Of a DNA stretch of 64,000 nucleotides, positions 4,151 to 30,758 are shown one piece after another. Below the pieces are notes generated by a model, which searched no databases, was not told the DNA's origin, and saw nothing but the letters and a program-made list of their open reading frames with translations. Where the stretch lies: NCBI RefSeq assembly GCF_026210795.1, contig NC_089432.1:434001-498000 (forward strand), in the 5' to 3' direction. Both the position numbers and the translations under genes were made by a program. Origin of the DNA: Rhizophagus irregularis (taxonomy: Eukaryota). The first letter of the stretch is position 1. Every line of letters starts with the position of its first letter.

Positions 4151-5508
4151 CATTTGGAACTAGTGGCGGGAACCGTTAGAGGGTTGTAAGACTTGAGCCT
4201 ATGTCCTTTATTTATAATAACAAAATATTAATATATACCGAGTTACACCTGCAATATAATATAATAAACTGACTCTAATAAACTATAAAGGGTAATTTCT
4301 TAAATCCTAAACTAAAAATGTAATTCTCAAATTCTAAACTAATTAAATTCTAGATTAAAAATGCGATAGTTTCCCCTCATTATATCTAATCTATAAATCA
4401 TTAATTAAAATAATTAATGAGGCACTTTTTCATCATAAAAAAAAGGCAAAAAGAATCGAATAAGAAAATTATGTATGTATGGAATTACGTGGGGTCATGT
4501 TCAAAACTAATAATTTTCTAAGAAGAATTCGCTTCATATTTATAATATTTTCCCTATGCCTTTATAACCAACTTAAAATAACACATAAATTAAAATACAC
4601 AACACATTTACACAAGAATAGTTTAACGTCAATTACGGGTGTTACCCTTTATGGAACCCAATTGTTGATAGTTGAACGTTTCCGGACCGCAGTTAATAAA
4701 AATACTTTAAATTTTATATACTTAAACTAAATATAATACTGCGCCTTATATTTTCGTAAAACGGGTACAACCGGTTTGACCTGATTCAACCCGATTCAAC
4801 CCAATTCAACCCGATTTTTACAAAGCAACTCATAATTTCAGCCAAATTCATAATTCTGGGTTTTTTTATACGTAATTTAACAAATTCCGAATTAGGAATT
4901 TTCATGTCGATCACAATGATTACGTGATAATGGTTCAAAAAAAAATATGAATCCGGTTCAAACCAAATCATTGTTGGAAACCGAATTACAGCCGGTTTGT
5001 GCAACAGGTTCATACTCCAGTTCCTTCGCCGGAATGGTTTTGGCGAAATGACCTTCGGTAAAATGTCTATTCGGGAAAATGGCATTTCGGTGAAACATCC
5101 CATCGGCGAAATTTGCTTCAGCAAAATAGGCTTCTGTGAATTGGACTTCAGCGAAAAGTTTGGATACTCCTAACAGCCTAACCTTAATTCGTTTCATATT
5201 TATGATTATGTGTACAAAACGTCTAAAAAAGCACCATTTTGTACATTTCGTTTTTACTGTTATCACTTTTTTAAACCGTTTTTGGTAAGATTTCTGGTCA
5301 TTAACCGGAACATATTTTATTAATGTTTTAAATTTGGAAACACTTTTAAAGGTTAATATTAATAGACATGGTTATATTCTAGATAAGGAAAAAATTCGCT
5401 AAACACAATATTTGTTTTCGGAATGTACAAAAATAAATTGGTTTTAATAAATGCGTTCGTGATAATATGATGACTCTGGATTATTTTTTTGGAAAGGGAC
5501 GGAGTCAT

Positions 5509-11770: not shown

Positions 11771-13249
11771 ATGATGACGCAATTTTTTTCGAAATTAAGT
11801 CAAAATTATGTTGAATTATTGAATGATAATGAATATTATGATGTTACGATCGAAGTTGATAATGTAAAAATCCCCTCACATAAGAATATATTGTGTTGCC
11901 GCTCACCATACTTACGACGAGTTTTTTCTTCTAATAAAAACCAGAGTAATATTAAATTACCAAATATATCATTCGAAATCTTTAAAATTGTTTTAAGGTA
12001 AGATACTACAGTACAGTAAAATTTAAAATATTATATAATTCGTATAATGGTATAATATAAAATTTTGTAATATAGGTATATTTATGGTGGTATTCTTCTA
12101 TTAAATGAGCGAGATACTTTAGATATTTTTAAAATTTTATTGGCAGCAGATGAACTACTTCTTCATGAAATAGTAGATTATTTACAGAAATATTTAATTG
12201 AAAATAAAACTGAATGGTTAGAACAAAATTTTGGACTTATTTATCAAACAAGATTTCAAACCGATTCTTTAGTAGAGATTCAAAAATTTTGTACAAATTT
12301 TATGATAAAATCTCCAGAGAAAATATTCAAATCACTTGATTTTACTTCACTCCCAGAAAATTTTTTAGTTCAACTTGTTAAAAGAGATGATATACAAATG
12401 AAAGAAATTGAAATTTGGGAACATTTATTAGAATGGGGTTTAGCGCAAAATCTAACTCTCAAACCAGATCCTAATACCTGGTTAGATGATGATTTTAAAT
12501 CAATGGAAAATACTCTACAACTTTGTTTACCTTCAATTAGATTTTTTAGTTTATCATCCAAAGAATTTTTGAACAAAGTTAAACCATACAAAAAGCTCTT
12601 AAAGTATCAGTTTTATGAAGATTTAATAAATTCTTATATGAACCCTGATAGTAAACCTAATGAAAGTATTTTACCTCCTAGAAATATTAAATTTAATGGA
12701 ATTATTGATTCAAAAATTATTAATTTAAATATTGTTTCAGTTCTTTCAAGGTGGATTGATAAAACTGATGTCAATTATAACTTTTCTCATTTAAGAGAAT
12801 TATATTTTCCATACAAATTTGAATTATTATTAAGAGGAAGTCGAGATGGATTTACTCCTAAAAAATTTCATGAATTATGTGATGATAAACCAAACACTAT
12901 TACTATAATTAAAATAAAAGGAACAGAAGAAATTCTCGGTGGATATAACCCTTTAAAATGGGAATCTCATGGTGGTTGGATTAAAACTATGGATAGTTTT
13001 ATTTTTTCTTTTGACAGTAAGAATATTAAGAACGCAATTATTAGTAATATACAAAAGACGCATGAAGCACTTTTTTGTGGTTGTAAAAATGGTCCAGATC
13101 TTGCCGATATAATTATAACTTCTTCTGATGAATTTATGGATTACGATAGAAAGTACTATGAAATGCGTCATTATGAAAAAAGAATAAGGGATATGAACGG
13201 TGACTTTCCTATGGAAGATTATGAGGTATTTCAAATCATAAGGATATAG
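11771..13249 (+). CDS. BTB/POZ-BACK-TLDc domain protein (exons 11771-11997, 12076-13249; ~466 aa)
   Basis: BTB motifs YYDVTIEV..HKNILCCRSPY..LR|YIYGG join across GT-AG intron 11998-12075. BACK-like EIEIWEHLLEWG. TLDc motifs LLLRGSRDGF..FHELCD..ILGGYNP..DSFIFSF..EDYEVFQI. Confidence 0.92.
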
Positions 13250-15490: not shown

Positions 15491-16903
15491 CTATTCATCA
15501 TTATTATCAGCATTTTTTGGTTCTGGAAGATTTTTAAAATCTAAAAGTCTACTTGTATAAACTGCTTGAGGATGTGTCGTATATGATATAGTACTAGTAG
15601 GTGATGAAAAAGATAACTTTTTATTAATATCATCTGTTTCTTTAACTTGTCCGTAAATTACAGAATCCACCTTATTGTAATGAATATCACTATATGAATT
15701 ATAAAATAACACACTTAATTCATGTGCATTAGGTCGTTTTAAAGGGTCTGCATCCCAACATTGATTAATAATATCAAAAATCAATTGAGGAATTTTATAA
15801 TTAGATTTTGGCCTCAACCCTTTACAAATTTTCATTGCTAAGAATTCATCATGAGCTATATCATAGTAAGGAGGAAAACCTGTACAAATTTCATATGCAA
15901 TGATTCCAAGCCCATAAATATCACTTTTTTGAGTATATTCATTTCCTCTTAAAACTTCTGGAGCTACATAAGGTAATACTCCATATATATTTTTATTTTG
16001 AGAGGATTTGACATTTGCCGGCTGACTTAATCCCAAATCAGTAATATAAGCCTTGTCACCAAAATCGCTTAATATATTTCCACAATGAAAATCATGATGA
16101 ATTAATCCTTTATTGTGAATATCACTAAGACCATATGCAATAACAGTTAAAATATACGACTTTTGTTCCCAATTCAGTGAAATGAAGTTGTTATTCAAAT
16201 GTTGTCTTAAACCACCATTTTTTAATTCCATTACCATCATAAAATTATTTGTTTTTGGATCTTTGGTAATACCAAAACAACGAACTATCCAAACAGAACT
16301 ATATACTAAAATGTTTGATTCAACCTTAAAAGAAAATTATAGTTAGTTTAGCATTTATAAAGGTTAATGAAGATTCATGAGAAAATACCTCACCTCTTTT
16401 AAAAATTCGGTCGTAATATCTTTTGAGTCGTTCAAACATTTTAAAGCAACTTTTGTTGCACCTTTTCTTTTCAATGGACCTGCACAATTTAAATTTATAT
16501 TCTGAGGACCATCTTTCCAAATTGCTTTAAAAGTAGTTCCAAATCCCCCTTTCGCTAAATATTCAATATCTTCAAATTTATCATATTCAATCCATTCTAT
16601 GATATGATCTACATCTTTAGCTTTTAATTGTGCTTTTTTAATAAACTCATCAACGTCATGATTTCCACTTGTCCAATTTTTGAAATTTTGTTGAGAATGT
16701 TGTGAATTACATGACCGACAATAATGATGACTAGTTTTAGGCTGTTTGCATGTTTCACATAAACCATATGATTTATAACATTCTTTTAATTCTTTGTCTG
16801 TTATTAGTTCATCAATTAACGATTCTTGTCCTTCAGTCAAATCATAATATTTGAACTCTTTTATTTGTTCAATTACATAATCACTTAATTTAATTTCATC
16901 CAT
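15491..16903 (-). CDS. Tyrosine-kinase-like protein kinase with N-terminal CxxC..CxxC/WTSGN module (exons 16903-16394, 16324-15491)
   Basis: Motifs CETC..CRSC, NWTSGN, GGFG, VALK, HHDFHCGN, DLG, PYVAPE, SDIYGLG and tail HPQAVYTSRLL. GT-AG intron 16393-16325 joins the exons in frame. Confidence 0.9.
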
Positions 16904-17185
16904 TTTAATAAATAATTTTTTAAACAAAAAATGTTATTAATTCGTAAGTAAAAATCACAAAAAAAAAAGAAGAAAAAAATAATAAGAAAAATAGTGAGAA
17001 AGCTTTCAAGATCGGCAAAAAAATTATGAAAAAAAAGACTAGTTAAAATAACAGAGGAAACACACTAGTCCTGATCGGCAATTAATTTATTCAATTTTGG
17101 AAAATTATTAAAAATTTCCATAATAAGTAATATTAAATGATAGAATAAATAACTAAATATAGTTTAAAAGAATTATGTATGTAAT

Positions 17186-17380: not shown

Positions 17381-19213
17381 TCTGAAATTTAATGAAATTT
17401 TTTACAAATTTAGCAAAAAGAAAATTGCATTTATTATTTCAAATTAAATTAAACAACTTCCAAATTTCCAAAATTCTCTTCTTATGTCTAAAATTTGACT
17501 TCTAGAATGGATTGAATATATATGATAGCTAGATTTGAAAAAATTACTAGTTGTAGATGTTCAATATTATATGACTGTCACCAATGCTACTGTATATAAA
17601 ATCATAAATGTGTTAATCTGATTACATACTCATATAAACCATAATGTTCAGTTTATAATAAAATTTTAATTCTTTCATTTATTACTAACAATTTTTGTTT
17701 TTTGAGGTTTTGATGGTCAAGATCATATTTGAATAAATTATAGCTAGGTTTGAGAAAATATTATATCACGTAAAAGTTTAGACTAGTTTTAATTTCGCTG
17801 AATTGAAATATTTAATAATGTCGTCATATGTATTAATTTATCTTATTCGTAATAATTATTTTTTTTTACTAAATTCATAAATAATTATTGCTTAACTTGA
17901 ATAATTTTTTAATTTAAATTTAATATTTAATATGTATCATATAAAATCATATTTTTTTTACGTAGCTCAATAGTTTAGAAACAGAAACAATCCAAAGATA
18001 AAATTCATTGGGTGCCAATCCCCCCCTACCTGTTTGTAGAGGAGGGCTTTTCATAAGGCTAAGTATATATACATATAGTATGCTATAAATACCTTAAATA
18101 TAATAATAATAAATTTTAAAGATTATAAATAAAATATCAGGCGAAAAGCCCTGTTTATATTAAATTAAATATCACGTGCATCACGTGACATACCAATAAC
18201 GCACTGCTGAGTTGGTTGGTTGGATTGCATTAATATCCTCTTTTTTTCACCTGGATAATCGAGATGATGACATTTTCCACTTTTATAGCTTAATCAATAG
18301 GTCTTTTTCCATAGCTTTTAGAAATTTCATATTGAAAATCTCACCACCAAAGATTGATACGATATCATAAATAATGTGGGAAAATAAATTCACAACGAGT
18401 GGCCTCTTTTTTAATAGAAATTTTGTTTAATTATCATAAAATATATACAGCCATTCCCTGACGACATTCATTACTTAAGGGTCAAATTCTATCTAAAAAT
18501 ATTAAGAACGTAGATGATAAATGTATGTTAGCGATTAATCATTTATTAGATTATTAATCATATATTCATTCATTTATAATTGAAAAACTATAACATGATG
18601 GTTAGTGTATTTTAGTGGCCGACCATTTGTCCAGATTTTAACTAAAACGGGAAATAAATGATAATTAAAAAGGATTTTATTCCCAAGTTTCTTGATTGAT
18701 TTGTTTTTTAAAAAAAAAAAAAATTAAATTGACGAAAAAAAGAATATACTTTTTTTTTACTGTTTTTGTGCACCGACAAGAAATATTTTGATTGCGATAT
18801 ATGGTTAACGTAAGGTCGTAAGGCGTAAAAATTATTTAACAATCATGTTGTACAGGATGTATGTACTAATTAATAAATAAATATGTTTAGGTCAAAAACT
18901 TAAAATATATTGGTAATTCAAAATTATAAATTCGGTTTTCGTTATCATTTAAGGTAAATAAGCTTATTTTTACATTATTGTAATAGTGTAATATTTAATA
19001 AATAAATATAATTATAAAAAAAAAATACAAAATTTAGTATAGAATTATCAAAAAAGAAATCCGAAGAACAACCAAGGAATTTATGGATACGTGTTGATAA
19101 AAGAAAATATCATGTAAAAAATTTATTTATAATTATTTAATTTATAATATTTTTTTTTTAATTAAATTGAAAGCTTCATGTTACCATTGGTTCAACTACT
19201 GAATTACTAGAAG

Positions 19214-20720
19214 ATACAGATGAAAAAATAATTTATATGGAAGATTTAGAAAAAAGAACGCGAATATATGGAATATGTGGAGAACGTTATGAACCTGGTA
19301 CAGGAAGTTCATGGTGTCGACCTTGTAATGCTAAAAGATTTAAAGAAAATTTTAAAAATTAGACTAGTGGAAATAAAGATATTGATGAATTAATTCAACG
19401 GTCACAACTTAATGCTTTACATTTTACAAAATGTCTTGAATGGATACATACATTATAATAATTTTGAAGATATTACTTATATTACAAGTGGTGGATTTGG
19501 TAAAATTTATTCTGTTAAATAGTTTGAAGGATATGTTAGGTGTTGGGATATTGAGAATCAGAAATGGATAAGAGATTCGTATTTCACAGTTGCGTTAAAA
19601 AGTTTGGATAATTCTTCTGATATAGGCGTAGCTTTTCTAAATGAGGTAATTCGAAATCTCCTTCATGTCATATATGTGTAATTATTTTTTAATAATATGA
19701 TCTTTTGCCTAAAAAATAAAAAAATTATTTTCTTTCTTCTTATCTTTAATATTCATATTAGGTTAAATCCCATCTTCTTATTTATTTTAAAGAGGTTGTT
19801 AGATGTTTCGACGTGACTCAAGACTCAATTACTAAAAATTATATGATGGTATTAAGATATTGTAAGCATGGAAATTTAAGAAATTATTTAAGCCAGTTTG
19901 AATATATTAATTTAAATTTTAAAACTGGTAAATTATCGGAAATTGCAAGAGGACTTTTAAATATTCATAATTCAGGAAATATATTACTAAATTCTGAGTT
20001 TTCATATATAAGTGATTTAGGAATGTGTCAACCGGTAAATGGTAAAATGATTGAAGAAGGAATCTATGGAGTATTACCTTATATGGCACCAAAAGTTTTA
20101 CGCGGACATCAATACACAAAAGAAGCAGATATTTACTCGTTTGGAATAATAATGAATGAATTTATAACAAAAGAAATTCCTCATAATAATATTCCTCATG
20201 ATCATTCTTTAGTTGTTAAAATATGTAAAATATGTAAAGGACTTCGACTAAAAATTTCTAATGATACATCAAAATTAATTTCAGATTTAATTATTAAATG
20301 TTGGGAACTTGGGATGCTAAAGTAAAAAATAGGCCAATAACTAAAGAATTATATCACAAATAGTAAAATGTGAAAAAATTAGAAAAATCCAATTAAAAAG
20401 GAGTGGATCAAATGAGACTTATGAGAGTAAGCAATTTATACTAGTAGACTTTTAAATTTTAATAATCTCCCGGAACCAACAAATTCTTCAGTTTTATTAT
20501 TTAGAAACCCAGGCAAAATTTAATATTTATTATGAAACTTTTATTTTTCATTAATTATTAATTATTAATTATTCTTTTAAATAGATGTTGTCCAACCACA
20601 AACAGAAAATTTAAGTAAGTATTTTTACGTAATCATATGGTAATATTTATACAATAATATTTATTGTTTATTTAATTTTATAGTTTTGGAATGTTTTGAT
20701 TATCAATTGAGTGAATCAGG
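19214..20720 (+). pseudogene. TKL kinase pseudogene
   Basis: YGICGE..WCRPC, N*TSGN (TGG>TAG), frameshift near 19450, GGFG, VALK, catalytic loop deleted (IHNSGNILL), PYMAPK, ADIYSFG and AIYTSRLL remnant. The 5' boundary is approximate. Confidence 0.85.
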
Positions 20721-21486: not shown

Positions 21487-24400
21487 CTAAAGTTTTGTCT
21501 GCTTTGCAAATTCCAACATATCATCTTTTAATTGATTATCAACATTAGGTACCATAAATTTATAATCTCCATCCCTGTTTATACTATAATATTCACTAAT
21601 ACATCTGATCCATTCAGATACAATATTTTCAAGCATTATTATGGTTGGTCTATTGGATGGATTTGAATCCCAACATTTTTTCATTAAATCTATATAACAT
21701 TTTGGAGTATTTTTTATAATTTCAGGGCGTTTCTCTTCACAGATACTCAAAATAAGGTGATGATCATGTGCTTCATGATTAAATGGAGGAATACCGGATG
21801 TAAATTCCCACATTATCATTGAAAAACTATAAATATCACTTGCTGGCGTATAGGGTTTGTTTCTTAATATTTCAGGAGCCATATAAGGTAAAACTCCATA
21901 AATTTCATTAACCTTATTACCAGAATCACTTATAGGTTTACATAGTCCTAAATCAATAATAAATAACTCATTGTGATTATCTGACATTAAAATATTACCA
22001 TCATGAAAATCACCATGAGTTAAATTTGATTCATGAATTACTTTAAGTCCTAATATAATTGTTTTCAATAATTGTAACTTGTCTTGCCACTTAAATTTAA
22101 TTATATCAGATAAACATTTTCTCAAACTTCCTTTTTTTGCATAACTCATTACTATTATATAATTTAAATTATTTGGATCTTGTGTAATTCCAAAGAATTG
22201 AATAAATTTTGAAAATGATTTTTTTTGACAATTATAATGATATTTCCACTATATAGATGATAAAAAAATTATTAAATTTTTTGCAAAAGAAAAATAAAAT
22301 TTGCTATTAAAATAAATACTATACCTCATCCAGAAATTCACTATTTAAATTTGATGAATTATTAAGTGTTTTGAGAATAACTTCATACTCTGTTTGTCTA
22401 TACCATTGTTGTTTGTCAAAGTCCCAACCATAAATAGGTCCATCTAACCAGATAGCTTTATGAATTTCACCAAATCCTCCTTTATCATAATAATCAATAC
22501 TTGACAATTTATTATAAGGTATCCATTCTAAAATTTCATAACTATTTTTAGCATTTAGTTGTGCTTCTTTAATAAATTCATCAATAAATTCATCTTTACT
22601 AGTCCACTTTGAAAAATCTTGTTGAAATCGTCTAGTATTACATTGTTGGCACCACTGATAATCAGTATATGGTCGCTTGCATTCATTACATAAATTCTTC
22701 TTTGTCCCTTCTTCATTATTATAACATTTTACTAAATTAAACATTGCTACTTCATCACCATTTTCTGCTGCTTTTTGATACCAATAAAAAGCTTTTTCTA
22801 AATTCCTCTCTGTTCCTTCTCCATTAATATAATATTTTACTAAATTAAACATTGCTGTTTCATCACCATTTTCTGCTGCTTTTTGATACCAATAAAAGGC
22901 TTTTTCTAAATTCTTTTCCGTCCCTTCTCCATTTTCATAACATTTGGCTAAATTAAACATTGCTACTTCATTATCATTTTTTGCTGCTTTTTGATACCAA
23001 TTAAAGGCCTTTTCTAAATTCTTTTCTGTTCCTTCTCTATTTTCATAACATATGGCTAAACTATTCATTGCCTTTTTATTACCATTTTCTGCTACTTTTT
23101 GATACCAATAAAAAGCTTTTTCTAAATTCTTCTCTGTTCCTTCTCCATTATTATAATATTTTACTAAATTAAACATTGCTGTTTCATCACCACTTTCTGC
23201 TGCTTTTTGATACCAATAAAAGGCTTTTTCTAAATTCTTTACTGTTCCTTCTCCATTTTTATAACACATGGCTAAACTATTCATTGCCTTTTTATCTCCA
23301 TTTTCTACTGCTTTTTGATACCAATGAAAGGCTTTTTCTAAATTCTTTTCTGTTCCTTCTCCATTTTCATAACATATGGCTAAACTATTCATTGCATTGA
23401 TATGACTATTTTCTGCTGCTTTTTGATACCAATGAAAGGCTTTTTCTAAATCCTTTTTTGGTCCTTCTCCATTTTCATAACATTTGGCTAAATTAAACAT
23501 TGCTATTTCATTACCACTTTCTACTGCCTTTCGATACCAATAAAAGGCTTTTTCTAAATTCTTTTCTGTTCCTTCTCCATTTTCATAACATATGGCTAAG
23601 TTAAACATTGCCACTTCATTACCATTTTTTACTGCTACATGATACCAATAAAAGGCTTTTATTAAATTCTTTTCTGTTCCTTCTCCATTTTCATAACATA
23701 TGGCTAAATTATTCATTGCTTTTTTATTACCATTTTCTGCTGCTTTTTGATACCAATGAAAGGCTTTTTCTAAATTTTTTTCTGTTCCCTCTCCATTATC
23801 ATACCTATCAGCTAAATTAAACATTGCTTTATTATCACCATTTTCTGCTGCTTTTTGATACCAATGAAAGGCTTTTTCTAAATTTTTTTCTGTTCCCTCT
23901 CCATTATCATAACTATTAGCTAAATTAAACATTGCTTTATTATCACCATTTTCTGCTGCTTTTTGATACCAACAAAAGGCTTTTTCTAAGTTCTTTTTTG
24001 TTCCTTCTCCATTTTCATAACATATGGCTAAACTATTCATTGCATTTTCATTACCATTTTCCACTGCTTTTTGATACCAATAAAAGGCTTTTTCTAAATT
24101 CTTTTCTGTTCCTTCTCCATTTTTATAACATATGGCTAAACTATTCATTGCATTAAGATGACCATTCTCTGCTGCTTTTTGATACCAACAAAAGGCTTTT
24201 TTTAAATTCTTTACTGTTCCTTCTCTATTTTCATAACATATGGCTAAACTATTCATTGCCTTTTTATCTCCATTTTCTGCTGCTTTTTGATACCAATGAA
24301 AGGCTTTTTCTAAATTCTTTTCTGTTCCTTCTCCATTTTTATAACATACGGCTAAACTATTCATTGCATTAATATGACCATTCACTGCTGCTATATGATA

Positions 24401-27400
24401 CCAATGAAAGGCTTTTTCTAAATTCTTTTTTGTTTCTTTTCCATTATAATAACACATGGCTAAATTAAACATTGCTACTTCATTACCATTTTCTACTACT
24501 TTTCTTTCTGTTCCTTCTCCATTTTCATAACATATGGCTAAATTATTCATTGCTTTTTTATCACCATTTTCTGCTGCTTTTTGATACCAATGAAAGGCTT
24601 TTTCTAAGTTCCTCTTTGTTCCTTCTCCATTTTCATAACATATGGCTAAACTACTCATTGCACTTTCATTACCATTTTCTGCTGCTTTTTGATACCAACG
24701 AAAGGCTTTTTCTAAATTCTTTTCCGTTCCTTCTCCATTTTTATAACAAATGGCTAAATTATTCATTGCATTAATATGACCATATTCTGCTGCTATTTGA
24801 TACCAACAAAAAGCTTTTTCTGAATTCTTTTCTATTCCTACTCCATCTTTATAACATATGGCTAAATTAAACATTGCTGTTTTATTACCATTTTCCGCTG
24901 CTTTTTTATACCAATGAAAGGCTATTTCAAAATTCTTTTCTGTTCCTTCTCCATTCTCGTAACATATGGCTAAATTATTCATTGCTTTTTTATTACCATT
25001 TTTTGCTGCTTTTTGATACCAATGAAAAGCTTTTTCTAAGTTCTTTTTTGTTCCTCTTCCATTTTCATAACATATGGCTAAATTATTCATTGCACCAATA
25101 TAACCATTTTCTGCTGCTTTTTGATACCAATGTAAGGCTTTTTCTAAATTCTTTTCTGTTCCTTTTCCATTTTCATAACATATGGCTAAATTAAACATTG
25201 CTTTTTTATTACCATTTTCTGCTGCTTTTTGATACCAATGAAAAGCTTTTTCTAAATTCTTTTCTGTTCCATCTCCATTTTCATAACATATGGCTAAACT
25301 ATTCATTGCATTTTCATTACCATTTTCTGCTGTTTTTTGATACCAACAAAAGGCTTTTTCTAAATTCTTTTCTGTTCCTCTTCCATTTTCATAACATATG
25401 GCTAAATTATTCATTGCTATTTCACTACCATTTTCTACTGCTTTTTGATACCAATGAAAGGCTTTTTCTAAATTCTTTTCTGCTCCTTTTCCATTTTCGT
25501 AACATATGGCTAAATTAAACATTGCATCAATATAACCATTTTCTGTTGCTTTTTGATACCAGTGAAAGGCTTTTTCTAGATTCTTTTTTGTTCCTTCTCC
25601 ATTTTTATAACATATGGCTAAATTAAACATTGCTACTTCATTACCATTTTCTGCTGCTTTTTGATACCAATGAAATGCTTTTTCTAAATTCTTTTCTATT
25701 CCTTTTCCATTTTTATAACATATTGCTAAGCTATTTATTGCATTAATATGACCATTTTCTGCCGCTTTTTGATACCAACAAAAGGATTTTTCTAAATTCT
25801 TTTCTGTTCCTTCTCCATTTTCATAACATATGGCTAAACTATTCATTGCATTAATATGACCATTTTCTGTTGCTTTTTGATAACAATGAAAGGCTTTTTC
25901 TAAATTCTTTTCTGTTCCTTCTCCATTTTTATAACATATGGCTAAGCTATTTATTGCATTAATATGACCATTTTCAGCCGCATTTTGATACCAACAAAAG
26001 GCTTTTTCTAAATTCTTTTCTGTTCCTTCTCCATTTTTATAACATATGGCTAAATTATTCATTGCTTTTTTATTACCATTTTCTATTGCCTTTTGATACC
26101 AATGAAAGGCTTTTTCTAAATTCTTTTCTGTTCCTTCTCCATTTTCATAACTATTGGCTAAATTATTCATTGCACTTTTATCACCATTTTTTGCTGCTTT
26201 TTGATACCAATGAAAGGCTTTTTCTAAATTCTTTTCTGTTCCTTCTCCGTTCTCATAACATATGGCTAAATTATTCATTGCTATTTCATTACCATTTTCT
26301 ACTGCTTTTTGATACCAATGAAAGGCTTTTTCTAGATTCTTTTTTGTTCCTTCTCCATTTTTATAACATATGGCTAAATTAAACATTGCTACTTCATTAA
26401 CATTTTCTGCTGCATTTTGATACCAATGAAAGGCCCTTTCTAAATTCTTTTCTGTTCCTCTTCCATTTTCATAACATATGGCTAAATTAAACATTGCTAC
26501 TTCATTAACATTTTCTGCTGCTTTTTGATACCAATGAAATGCCTTTTCTAAATTCTTTTCTGTTCCTCTTCCATTTTCATAACATATGGCTAAATTATTC
26601 ATTGCTTTTTTATCTCCATTTTCTGCTGCTTTTTGATACCAACAAAAGGCTTTTTCTAAATTCTTTTCTGTTCCTTTTCCATTTTCATAAAATATGGCTA
26701 AACTATTCATTGCATTAATATGACCACTTTCTGTTGCTTTTTGATACCAACAAAAGGCTTTTTCTAAATTCTTTTCTGTTCCTTCTCCATTTTTATAACA
26801 TATGGCTAAACTATTCATTGCATAAGTATAACCATTTTCTGCTGCTTTTTGATGCCAATGAAAGGCTTTTTCTAAATTCTTTTCTGTTCCTTTTCCATTT
26901 TTATAACATATGGCTAAATTATTCATTGCTTTTTTATCTCCATTTTCTGCTGTTTTTTGATACCAACAAAAGGCTTTTTCTAAATTCTTTTCTGTTCCAT
27001 TTCCATTTTCATAAAATATGGCTAAACTATTCATTGCATTAATATGCCCATTTTCTGTTGCTTTTTGATACCAGCAAAAGGCTTTTTCTAGATTCTTTAC
27101 TGTTCCTTTTCCATTTTCATAACATATGGCTAAACTATTCATTGCATTAATATGACCATTTTCTGCTGCTTTCTGATACCAACAAAAGGCTTTTTCTAAA
27201 TTCTTTTCTGTTCCTTTTCCATTTTCATAACATATGGCTAAATTAAACATTGCTACTTCATTACCATTTTCTACTGCATTTTGATACCAATGAAAGGCTT
27301 TTTCTAGATTCTTTGCTGTTCCTTTTCCATTTTCATAACATATGGCTAAATTAAACATTGCATTAATATAACCATATCCTGCTGCATTTTGATACCAATG

Positions 27401-29641
27401 AAAGGCTTTTTCTAAATTAGTTTCTGTTCCTTTTCCATTTTCGTAACATATGGCTAAATTAAACATTGCTTTTTTATTTCCATTTTCTGTTGCTTTTTGA
27501 TACCAATGAAAGGCTTTTTCTAAATTCTTTTCTGTTTCTTTTCCATTATAATAAAATGTGGCTAAGTTATTCATTGCATTAATATGACCATTTTCTGCTG
27601 CTTTTTGATACCAATGAAAGGCTTTTTCTAAATTCTTTTCTGTTCCTTTTCCATTTTCGTAACATATGGCTAAATTAAACATTGCATTAATATGACCATT
27701 TTCTATTGCTTTTTGATACCAACAAAAGGCTTTTTCTAAATTCTTTTCTGTTCCTTTTCCATTTTCATAACATATGGCTAAACTATTAATTGCACTAATA
27801 TGACCATTTTCTTTTGCTTTTTGATACCAGCAAAAAGCTTTTTCTAGATTCTTTACTGTTCCTTCTCCATTTTCATAACATATGGCTAAACTATTCATTG
27901 CATTAATATGACCATTTTCTGCTGCTTTCTGATACCAATGAAAGGCTTTTTCTAAATTCTTTTCTGTTCCTTTTCCATTTTCATAATATATGGCTAAATT
28001 AAACATTGCAACTTCATTACCATTTTCTACTGCATTTTGATACCAATGAAAAGCTTTTTCTAGATTCTTTTCTGTTCCTTTTCCATTTTCATAACATATG
28101 GCTAAATTAAACATTGCATTAATATAACCATATCCTGCTGCTCTTTGATACCAATGAACGGCTTTTTCTAAATTAGTTTCTGTTCCTTTTCCATTTTCGT
28201 AACATATGGCTAAATTAAACATTGATACTTTATTACCGTTTTCTACTGCTTTTTGATACCAATGAAAGGCTTTTTCTAAATTCTTTTCTGTTCCTTTTCC
28301 ATTTTCGTAACATATGGCTAAATTAAACATTGCATTAATATGACCATTTTCTGTTGCTTTTTGATACCAACAAAAAGCTTTTTCTAAATTCTTTTCTGTT
28401 CCTTTTCCATTTTCATAACATATGGCTAAACTATTAATTGCACTAATATGACCATTTTCTGTTGCTTTTTGATACCAGCAAAAAACTTTTTCTAGATTCT
28501 TTTCTGTTCCTTCTCCATTTTCATAACATATGGCTAAATTATTCATTGCTTTTTTATCTCCATTTTCTGTTGCTTTTTGATACCAACAAAAGGCTTTTTC
28601 TAAATTCTTTTCTGTTCCTTCTCCATTTTTATAACATATGGCTAAATTATTCATTGCTTTTTTATCTCCATTTTCTGCTGCTTTTTGATACCAATGAAAG
28701 GCTTTTTCTAAATTTTTTTCTGTTCCTCTTCCATTTTCATAACATATGGCTAAATTATTTATTGCTATTTCATTACCATTTTCTACTGCTTTTTGATACC
28801 AATGAAATGTTTTTTCTAAATTCTTTTCTGTTCCTTCTCCATTTTTATAACATATGGCTAAATTATTCATTGCTTTTTTATCTCCATTTTCTGCTGCTTT
28901 TTGATACCAACAAAAGGCTTTTTCTAAATTCTTTTCTGTTCCTCTTCCATTTTCATAACATATGGCTAAATTATTCATTGCTATGTCACTACCATTTTCT
29001 ACTGCTTTTTGATACCAATGAAATGTTTTTTCTAAATTCTTTTCTGTTCCTTCTCCATTATAATAACATATGGCTAAATTATTCATTGCTTTTTTACTAC
29101 CATTTTCTGCTGCTTTTTGATACCAATGAAAGGCTTTTTCTAAATTCTTTTCTGTTCCTTCTCCATTTTTATAACATATGGCTAAATTAAACATTGCATC
29201 AATATAACTATTTTTTGCTGCTTTTTGATACCAATGAAAGGCTTTTTCTAAATTCTTTTCTGTTTCTTTTCCATTATAATAAAATGTGGCTAAGTTATTC
29301 ATTGCATTAATATGACCATTTTCTGCTGCTTTTTGATACCAATGAAAGGCTTTTTCTAAATTCTTTTCTGTTCCTTCTCCATTTTTATAACATATTGCTA
29401 AATTATTCATTGCATTAATATGACCATTTTCTGCTGCTTTTTGATACCAATGAAAGGCTTTGTCTAAATTCTTTTCTGTTCCTTTTCCATTTTCATAGCA
29501 TATGGCTAAACTATTCATTGCATTAATATGACCATTTTCTGCTGCTTTTTGATACCAATGAAAGGCTTTTCCTAAATTCTTTTCTGTTCCTTTTTCATCA
29601 TAATAACTATTAGCTACTAAATTACTAAGATTAGTTCCCAT
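21487..29641 (-). CDS. Giant Sel1-like repeat (~64 x 36 aa) + C4 zinc ribbon + TKL protein kinase (exons 29641-22325, 22248-21487; ~2690 aa)
   Basis: A 7.3-kb open exon of AMxNLAICYxNGxGTEKNLEKAFxWYQKAAENG units, then CNEC..CQQC, WTS, GGFG and VILK. GT-AG intron 22324-22249, then HGDFHDGN, DLG, PYMAPE and SDIYSF. A probable 1-bp frameshift near 21505 truncates the tail, which would otherwise end at 21320. Confidence 0.92.
22695..29630 (-). repeat. 108-bp coding tandem repeat array (Sel1 units)
   Basis: TTTTTGATACCAA..AAAGGCTTTTTCTAAATTCTTTTCTGTTCC recurs every 108 bp. One unit near 24500 is shortened in frame by 30 bp. Confidence 0.97.
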
Positions 29642-30758
29642 TTGGTTATTTTAGAAATTTATTTTATTGAAAAAAATTTTTTTGAAAAAAAATTTTATTT
29701 TTTTTCTTTATTTAATATACCATGAATTAGTTACTAAAAAGGGGTATATTTTACCAATAGTAGAAGTTACAATAAAAATGAATTTTTTTCGGGTCATTTT
29801 TTTTCCGATGCACTAATCTGCATCATACCAAATTCTAAAAAAAGTTTTGGTCCGATGTGTCAAATTTCACTGTGTTTCATACTTTCAATATAGTAGACAT
29901 ACGCAAAATTTCAAACAATTTATGTATTTTAATATCCTATTATTTAAATAAACTTAATAATTAAAAGCTCTATTTAAGTAGAATCTAAATAAAAAAGCTA
30001 ATTTAAGAACAAACAAGCTTAGTTTTTGAAAAATTTTAAGATTATTAGAAACATTTTTATCAGCATGTTCTTCAATGAAATTGGTAGGCAAATAAGTAGG
30101 TATGAATTGAATATTTTCACAAATAAAACTAATAAAACTTATTATATAGGTGTACAAAATCGTTATACTAATATAATTATAATAATTACATTCAATAGTA
30201 ATTTTCTTCTCAGAAATTTGACGATACATAGTATAATAAAATGATTATTATAAATTTAGAATCCTATTATACTCACGAATATACTTACAAATACACAAAT
30301 AGTATTAAAAAAATTTCTGGGTATCATAACTATCATATGCTTAAATTTAAATATATAAATTAAATCTATTTTTGATAAAAATTGATGTCAAAAGTTACAA
30401 TAAATGAATCCTAAATTTAGATTGGCCCATGTGCTATTACGTAATTCTAATTTTGTATATTAAAATTAAATTTGAAAAAAAAAATTTGAAAAATTTTAAT
30501 GGCAAATAAGATTGTAGGCATGTTTTATTATCCATAGACGTAAACAAACATAATGCAGATCAATGAAACATAGCCTGAAAAATAAAAATCAACGAAAATT
30601 TTTAATTTTAGTTAAAAACGGCGATAAAAATCCGCCATAACAAATACTGTAAATGTAAACAATAAAATGTAAAATATATGGTATTTTGAACTTGTCCATT
30701 TCTAATAAAATCATGACATTAGAATTATAATATATATTTTTTAACCATAATTGAGTCA
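29632..30758. repeat. Upstream region and start of the Sel1-kinase gene, duplicated at ~55923-57089
   Basis: Collinear direct similarity from TTAGTTCCCATTTGGTTATTTTAGAAATTT to TTTTAACCATAATTGAGT. Confidence 0.9.

What the first reader, a model, noticed from the sequence alone, without database searches (positions are those of the whole stretch)
22695..29630. ~64-unit Sel1 array with a few small-alphabet hypervariable positions fused to a kinase: candidate variable non-self sensor
Seen: the units are near-identical except at recurrent positions (AF[H/C/Y/R/N]WY, NG[H/D/N/Y/S][I/K/E][N/K/V/I/T], AM[N/F][N/S]L, Y[E/K/Y], G[E/K/R]G), and 7 kb stays open. Established: highly conserved tandem repeats with variable residues form the recognition domains of fungal NLR-like proteins (e.g. 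HET-E WD40), and Sel1 and TKL kinase families are expanded in AM fungi. Inference: a cytoplasmic receptor kinase whose specificity is recoded by repeat shuffling. No TM helix or signal peptide is visible.
Basis: partly seen in the sequence, partly recalled or inferred. Interest (0 to 1): 0.75.

Follow-up and report, generated by a model that had tools for sequence, protein, structure and literature searches.

The report
Giant variable Sel1-repeat fungal kinase
A gene of a root-symbiotic (arbuscular mycorrhizal) fungus joins 64 similar Sel1 repeats, which differ mostly at their predicted binding groove, to a protein kinase; it is an extreme member of a large gene family that likely works as a variable intracellular sensor, though no ligand, expression or difference between strains is shown for this copy.

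Summary
One frame on the minus strand (ATG 29641) carries 64 Sel1 units (87% alike in DNA, 62 of 63 aligned units distinct), then, across a 76-base intron, a kinase with all catalytic motifs. The kinase exon is identical to a protein named Rhizophagus irregularis. The architecture is a known, expanded Glomeraceae family (0-14 units in database relatives), so only the length is exceptional. New here: half of the variable sites fall on the concave helix that binds ligands in Sel1/TPR structures; amino-acid diversity there exceeds synonymous diversity, weakly in this array alone (simulated P 0.01-0.08) but in 33 of 34 related arrays from metagenome contigs (neutral null about 17); linkage decays within 10-20 bases, so units are mosaics; and the kinase is non-RD. 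Against: several relatives' arrays are fixed across strains, two variable sites are on the convex face, this copy has a frameshifted tail and near-neutral change off the groove, and neither expression nor strain variation of this array was shown. Verdict: a NOD-less counterpart of fungal NLR repeat sensors is the best reading (0.5); 'non-self' is inferred.

The parts
22325..29641 (-). Exon 1: ATG, half unit, Sel1 array, CxxC..CxxC linker and kinase N-lobe (2439 codons)
22697..29578 (-). Array of 64 Sel1 units of 108 bases (63 full, one shortened)
   Evidence: Pfam PF08238
24425..24502 (-). Shortened unit (26 aa; in-frame loss of 10 residues)
22325..22696 (-). Two CxxC motifs, then kinase N-lobe with KGGFG loop and VILK lysine; about 24 residues (last helix and linker) present in close relatives are missing at the array-kinase junction
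22249..22324 (-). 76-base GT..AG intron (predicted; joins EFLDE to WKYHY as in relatives)
21487..22248 (-). Exon 2: kinase C-lobe, HGDFHDGN (non-RD), DLG, APE; ends at TAG after a frameshift
   Evidence: 100% identical over 220 aa to P0129
21503..21508 (-). One-base frameshift behind the kinase fold; the shifted residues also stand in P0129
21320..21486 (-). Family C-terminal tail (QEQANTSIMQSHPQAYYTS...ECIIENQ), now in another frame

Best explanation
This is a 64-unit member of the expanded Glomeraceae family of Sel1-repeat, non-RD kinases, and it likely works as an intracellular receptor kinase whose predicted binding groove is varied unit by unit. Shown: the array, the intact catalytic motifs, mosaic units and excess amino-acid diversity at groove positions across related arrays. 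Inferred mechanism: unequal exchange and short-tract conversion keep the helical scaffold uniform, add or remove units and recombine a small set of groove residues; the units stack into a superhelix (about 8-9 turns, 50-60 nm by the geometry of c5321), windows of about three units form many different peptide-binding sites, and binding of a foreign or altered protein brings kinases together or relieves them and starts a phosphorylation signal, as the repeat sensors of fungal NLRs do but without a NOD domain.
For: Six of 12 variable positions (17, 19, 22, 23, 26, 29) are the concave-face positions of TPR/Sel1 solenoids and two more (18, 27) are on the same helix. Groove piN 0.257 against piS 0.150, core ratio 0.20; synonymous diversity inside codons 17-32 is not raised (0.056 against 0.088 outside), so the residues are not just riding on an old cassette. 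33 of 34 metagenome arrays have groove piN above piS (28 of 29 after merging related arrays), median ratio 1.89; a neutral-groove simulation gives 16-17 of 34, at most 25, in 192 sets. r2 falls from 0.23 to 0.03 within 20 bases, permutation P 0.0002; block duplications of 515, 293 and 286 bases with 17, 5 and 8 mismatches. 61 of 63 units have their nearest neighbour in this array; identity to consensus 0.83, above the 0.7 used for HIC. 57 of 63 readable family kinases are non-RD. The closest relatives P0125 and P0130, 95% alike outside the repeats, share no unit.
Against: In this array alone the excess is marginal: P 0.09 against four-fold sites, simulated P 0.009-0.07 when conditioned on piS and about 0.08 unconditioned; the count of variable codons is not significant with 60-base tracts (P 0.17). 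Positions 7 and 13 are as variable but lie on the convex helix; groove position 30 is nearly fixed. Off-groove, non-core positions change almost neutrally here (ratio 0.93). P0009/P0259/P0261 (11 of 11 units) and P0016/P0317 (10 of 10) are identical between records, and the co-linear pair P0009/P0260 from two species shows no groove excess (7 of 70 against 10 of 120, P 0.79). Tail frameshift, junction deletion and CpG depletion (o/e 0.13) fit a decaying or silenced copy. Expression of this copy is not shown. Non-RD is a clade trait, not 57 independent events.
Confidence: 0.5

Rival explanations
1. Runaway copy: the family may be receptor-like, but this gene is a recent, unselected over-expansion under relaxed constraint, and its small alphabets are old family variants plus AT-biased transitions spread by conversion.
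For: Ratio 0.93 at non-core, non-groove sites; tail frameshift and junction deletion; CpG o/e 0.13 in the array and 0.23 in exon 2 against 0.96 for the window; kinase and Sel1 genes are highly methylated in this species (PMC8647823); a pseudogene kinase lies 1.2 kb away; E/K, A/V/T and H/Y/C are transition neighbours.
Against: No stop or frameshift in 7.3 kb, one in-frame deletion, core ratio 0.20, all catalytic motifs kept; N/F at 22 needs two transversions and no intermediate occurs in 63 units.
Confidence: 0.25
2. Endogenous scaffold kinase: each unit is tuned to a fixed position on the fungus's own partner proteins; diversity among units is division of labour, not an arms race.
For: Groove variability is generic to TPR families (PMC1261162); several arrays are fixed between strains and co-linear between species.
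Against: Mosaic units and block duplications would break position-specific tuning; close relatives with wholly different arrays; a large accessory family with non-RD kinases.
Confidence: 0.2
3. The length or order of the array is an assembly artefact.
For: Records that are 100% identical outside the repeats differ in unit number in six relative pairs, so assemblies or gene calls do mishandle these arrays; no database protein holds this array.
Against: Longest exact repeat 158 bases, only one identical unit pair, duplicated blocks carry mismatches, frame intact; the errors seen in relatives look like losses, not gains.
Confidence: 0.05

Closest known systems
Glomeraceae Sel1-repeat/tyrosine-kinase-like proteins ('Skt5p', 'HCP-like', 'kinase-like domain-containing'; e.g. 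P0125 CAB5347611.1, P0130 EXX52799.1, P0005)
   Same: Same order (Sel1 units, CxxC linker, kinase, same exon break), 82-89% kinase identity, same variable positions (Spearman 0.59 with 24 relatives' arrays). Family expansion is in print (PMC8647823, PMC6123716, PMC9453076).
   Different: 64 units against 0-14 in relatives of this layout and 22-24 in the longest related arrays; smaller alphabets; extra variability at 7 and 13; tail frameshift.
HIC repeat sensors of fungal NLRs (Podospora HET-E/HET-D WD40; HIC TPR and ANK NLRs)
   Same: High internal conservation, a few hypervariable positions with excess amino-acid change, repeat gain and shuffling (PMC12222747 abstract; PMC13449251 passages).
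   Different: No NACHT/NB-ARC domain; Sel1 repeats; sensor is N-terminal and wired straight to a kinase; 64 units against about 11; no ligand or incompatibility phenotype known.
Sel1-like repeat solenoids c5321 (4BWR), HcpC (1OUV), Oxalobacter 6OK3; Helicobacter slr genes
   Same: 13/7/13/3 helix-loop geometry; Foldseek E 5e-15, 2.9 A over 208 columns for 6OK3; positive selection on surface residues reported for H. pylori slr genes (PMC1941758).
   Different: Those are secreted bacterial proteins of 4-13 divergent units without a kinase.
Non-RD receptor kinases of plant and animal innate immunity (FLS2, EFR, XA21, IRAK; names partly recalled)
   Same: Catalytic-loop arginine replaced (HGD, HCD); a repeat solenoid as likely sensor.
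   Different: No transmembrane helix or ectodomain; kinship of the kinase to RLK/Pelle was not tested.

Membership tests
Glomeraceae Sel1-kinase family | Tandem PF08238 units N-terminal to PF07714/PF00069 kinase | tested here: met
Glomeraceae Sel1-kinase family | Kinase close to named Rhizophagus members | tested here: met
   100% to P0129 over 220 aa, 88.8% to P0125/P0130 over 374 aa
Active protein kinase | Gly loop, VAIK lysine, HxD..N, DxG, APE | tested here: met
   KGGFG 2387, VILK 2421, HGDFHDGN 2517, DLG 2538, APE 2563; activity itself untested
Fungal NLR | Central NACHT or NB-ARC domain | tested here: not met
   the 2692-aa model is fully accounted for by Sel1 units and kinase
HIC repeat sensor (HET-E-like behaviour) | High internal conservation (Psim 0.7 or more) | tested here: met
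   mean identity to consensus 0.83, my own approximation of Psim; threshold from PMC13449251
HIC repeat sensor (HET-E-like behaviour) | Hypervariable positions under diversifying selection | tested here: inconclusive
   marginal for this array, strong across 34 related arrays; no excess in one orthologue pair
HIC repeat sensor (HET-E-like behaviour) | Variable sites on the binding surface | tested here: met
   6 of 12 on concave positions, 2 more on the same helix, by register with 4BWR and TPR_1; solvent exposure not computed
HIC repeat sensor (HET-E-like behaviour) | Repeat shuffling within the array | tested here: met
   LD decay, four-gamete pairs 74-82% beyond 10 bases, block duplications
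HIC repeat sensor (HET-E-like behaviour) | Length and order polymorphism among strains | not testable with these tools
   no allele of this array in the databases; relatives give mixed, assembly-confounded results
HIC repeat sensor (HET-E-like behaviour) | Recognition of a non-self ligand and cell-death or defence output | not testable with these tools
   needs experiments
Non-RD receptor kinases | Residue before catalytic Asp is not Arg | tested here: met
   HGD here; 43 G, 10 C, 3 S, 1 N, 6 R, 10 unread of 73
Non-RD receptor kinases | Transmembrane helix and ectodomain | tested here: not met
   maximum KD19 0.9

The most novel reading that the evidence does not exclude
Arbuscular mycorrhizal fungi run a NOD-less innate recognition system: hundreds of cytoplasmic Sel1 solenoids with recombining groove codes, wired to non-RD kinases and swapped onto other output domains (MACPF-like, protease-like), that screen incoming nuclei, endobacteria or viruses; this 64-unit gene is a single-molecule library of at least 36 groove words whose content changes by somatic recombination among nuclei.
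Probability: 0.3. Interest if true: 0.85.

Novelty: new variant of a known kind. Interest (0 to 1): 0.58.

Why it matters
The Sel1 and kinase expansions are among the largest gene families of these fungi and have no assigned function, and how these multinucleate fungi tell self from non-self or police endobacteria is open. A position-level signature (groove codons diversify, scaffold homogenised, kinase non-RD) turns a vague 'signalling expansion' into testable predictions: which codons should be polymorphic, which genes should track fusion compatibility, and which surface to probe for ligands. It also warns that short-read gene models undercount these arrays.

Tried and rejected
No whole genome is held for the window. 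First AlphaFold run on self-aligned units gave pLDDT 51 and was not used for mapping. A first frequency-spectrum test misclassified third positions inside multi-base codon changes and was not significant (P 0.23-0.35); dropped in favour of codon-level counts. The null had piS 0.075 against 0.26 observed and was replaced. The orthologue count slipped register after insertions and was replaced. Laying four runs on the kinase and 3' flank at 90% mostly caught paralogues: exact pieces of the 3' flank stand in X1, X2 and X6, 29 of 1322 RNA reads of X24 were 99% alike or more, and none can be assigned to this copy, so it is not used as evidence of expression. No identical 36-aa unit is shared with any of 249 database proteins, so recent exchange between genes is not shown. 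CpG decay as the source of the alphabets: possible for position 7 only; most variable codons have no CpG context. ESM Atlas returned only a generic Mucoromycota Sel1 cluster. Unit-number differences between relatives were rejected as proof of polymorphism.
Full report
1. What is there. The minus strand holds a 2443-aa stop-to-stop frame at 22319..29650 with ATG at 29641. It parses into a 21-aa half unit, 62 units of 36 aa and one 62-aa stretch made of a full unit and a unit lacking 10 residues: 64 units (Tandem Repeats Finder period 108). Pfam calls them Sel1. Behind the array come two CxxC motifs and a kinase N-lobe, a 76-base GT..AG intron (22324-22249) and the C-lobe exon (22248-21487); the spliced model is 2692 aa with KGGFG, VILK, HGDFHDGN, DLG and APE in place and no hydrophobic segment. 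The intron is predicted from its ends and from relatives that read EFLDEWKYHY. A one-base shift near 21507 ends the protein shortly after the kinase fold and leaves the family tail in another frame; P0129 (POG73992.1, named R. irregularis by its source) is 100% identical over 220 aa and carries the same shifted residues, so the shift is not peculiar to this window, and the organism is R. irregularis or very near it. About 24 residues that close relatives have between the last unit and the CxxC motif are missing.

2. Variation among units. Mean identity is 86.7% in DNA and 75.7% in protein; 62 of 63 aligned units are distinct (the shortened unit was left out). Twelve of 36 positions exceed 0.9 bits (7, 13, 17, 18, 19, 22, 23, 26, 27, 29, 32, 35, counting from the N of NLEK). 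Identity to consensus is 0.83 and 61 of 63 units are closest to a unit of this array rather than to any of 347 metagenome units: concerted evolution. Among 28 informative sites r2 falls from 0.23 (1-3 bases) to 0.03 (over 20 bases), permutation P 0.0002, and 74-82% of pairs more than 10 bases apart show four gametes; recurrent mutation can add to this, but the decay with distance points to exchange within units. Block duplications are visible (515 bases, lag 7, 17 mismatches; 293, lag 6, 5; 286, lag 2, 8), and the longest exact repeat is 158 bases, which argues against a mis-assembled expansion. The array itself was not checked against reads.

3. Where the variable sites lie. An AlphaFold2 model of the last six units plus N-lobe, on an alignment of 60 sequences, has pLDDT 88-98 over the first 190 residues with helices at unit positions 18-30 and 2-14; Foldseek's best matches are Sel1 solenoids (6OK3, 2.9 A over 208 columns). 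c5321 has the same 13/7/13/3 layout, its first helices form the concave face, 7-8 units make a turn of 60-65 A, and a peptide in a crystal contact touches helix-1 positions 2, 5, 6, 9, 13 and the loop residue before it (PMC3851747, passages; residue-to-position conversion mine). By the alignment these are my 19, 22, 23, 26, 30 and 17. TPR binding positions are 2, 5, 6, 9, 12, 13 (PMC1261162, passages). I took 17, 19, 22, 23, 26, 29, 30 as the groove set. It was chosen after I had seen, so it is not blind for this array, though it omits variable 18 and includes fixed 30. Six of the 12 variable sites are in it, 18 and 27 are on the same helix, 32 and 35 in the loop, 7 and 13 on the convex helix. 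No coordinates were available, so exposure was not computed.

4. Selection. In this array piS is 0.150; piN is 0.033 at core, 0.140 at other and 0.257 at groove positions (corrected ratios 0.20, 0.93, 1.88). Against 8 four-fold sites the groove excess has P 0.09. Simulated conversion with AT-biased mutation and neutral groove codons gives P 0.009-0.045 for groove piN and 0.03-0.07 for the ratio when conditioned on piS, about 0.08 unconditioned; eight or more highly variable codons has P 0.006-0.17 by setting. So this array alone is suggestive only. Of 80 related metagenome loci, 41 had six or more units; 7 were dropped as duplicates, leaving 34. Groove piN exceeds piS in 33 of 34 and exceeds other positions in 34 of 34; groove diversity exceeds four-fold diversity in 29 of 31 testable arrays; 28 of 29 after merging related arrays; median ratio 1.89. 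The matched null gives 16-17 of 34 (maximum 25) and a median of at most 1.28 in 192 sets. These contigs are AT-rich (22-30% GC) and unnamed, appear to come from few data sets, share family ancestry, and were not each checked for an attached kinase or an intact gene. The same positions vary in 24 protein arrays of named Glomeraceae (Spearman 0.59).

5. The family. The junction search found 320 shorter and 4 long proteins, the named ones from Rhizophagus and Glomus. Of the 124 retrieved, 73 covered both kinase exons and carry 0-12 units, up to 14 among cluster members; related arrays reach 22-24 (L001, P0297), and the highest count by my scan of 249 proteins was 45 in an unrelated-looking protein of 54% internal identity (the scan undercounts divergent units). 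The kinase is non-RD in 57 of 63 readable cases (43 G, 10 C, 3 S, 1 N; 10 of 73 unread). Non-RD kinases are described as mainly immune receptors in plants (PMC4654520, passages); that G and C are the typical replacements is recalled from Dardick and Ronald 2006, which I could not see. The same kind of array is fused to a weak MACPF-like match (P0004, P0040, P0064, P0156; below Pfam cut-off) and to a NAL1-like, apparently protease domain (P0031; weak). Comparisons within 15 clusters are mixed: identical arrays in P0009/P0259/P0261, P0016/P0317 and three P0023 records; wholly different arrays in P0125/P0130 (95.3% outside the repeats) and P0023/P0283 (91.5%); longer, partly new arrays in P0031/P0321 and P0040/P0318; and six pairs that are 100% identical outside the repeats yet differ in unit number, which shows assembly or annotation loss. 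The co-linear pair P0009/P0260 has 7 of 70 groove changes against 10 of 120 elsewhere (P 0.79) and 20 of 419 in the kinase part (P 0.09). Hence 64 may be less exceptional than databases suggest, and fast recoding is not a property of every member.

6. Is this copy alive? For: 7.3 kb open, purifying selection on the core, intact kinase. Against: tail frameshift, junction deletion, near-neutral off-groove change, CpG o/e 0.13, a pseudogene kinase next door, and high methylation of Sel1 and kinase genes in this species (PMC8647823, passages). RNA reads laid on the kinase are mostly from paralogues; expression is open.

7. What is in print. The Sel1 and kinase expansions are reported without function (passages of PMC8647823, PMC6123716, PMC9453076, PMC8778642 and bioRxiv 2023.01.15.524138). 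HIC sensors with hypervariable sites are established for fungal NLRs (PMC12222747 abstract and outline; passages of PMC13449251 and PMC10197012; 'sel1' does not occur in PMC13449251). Positive selection on Sel1-like proteins is known from H. pylori (PMC1941758, passages). Searches listed no paper describing diversifying groove codons, shuffling or non-RD status for Sel1 kinases of these fungi; subscription papers and supplements were not seen and may bear on this.

8. Verdict. Observation confirmed; interpretation partly supported. Member of a known expanded family, not an NLR; works, most likely, like the HIC repeat sensor of an NLR wired directly to a kinase (0.5). Rivals: relaxed runaway copy (0.25), endogenous scaffold (0.2), artefact (0.05). 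The lasting result is the family-wide groove signature, for which this gene is the most striking example. Interest 0.58.

Noticed in passing
window 19171-20325 (+): Kinase pseudogene of the same broad family: in-frame stops in exon 1 and loss of the catalytic loop; converges on the Sel1-kinase gene.
   Followed up: partly
window 15491-16933 (-): Another two-exon CxxC-kinase without Sel1 units, catalytic loop HHDFHCGN, also non-RD.
   Followed up: no
window 12071-13249 (+): BTB/BACK-TLDc gene, another expanded family of these fungi.
   Followed up: no
window 51692-53482 (+): Cytochrome P450 in at least two exons.
   Followed up: no
window 58174-60245 (-): MULE transposase remnant in several frames; MULEs are reported next to high-copy signalling genes (PMC8647823).
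   Followed up: no
window 4786-5371 and 45954-46448; 44325-44382 and 60969-61026: Copies of unclassified dispersed repeats (similar spurious ORFs, same 30-base tandem unit).
   Followed up: no
P0004, P0040, P0064, P0156, P0031: Closely similar Sel1 arrays fused to a weak fungal MACPF-like match or to a NAL1-like protease-type domain instead of, or besides, a kinase: possible swapping of one sensor among outputs.
   Followed up: partly
P0007/P0257, P0017/P0267, P0018/P0299, P0002/P0297, P0058/P0316, P0026/P0302: Public records identical outside the repeats differ by 1-7 Sel1 units, so database models of this family are unreliable for unit number.
   Followed up: partly
P0133, P0135: Unrelated long Sel1 arrays (a bacterial-type kinase of 3934 aa; a RING/B-box protein of 2023 aa) vary at the same unit positions.
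   Followed up: no
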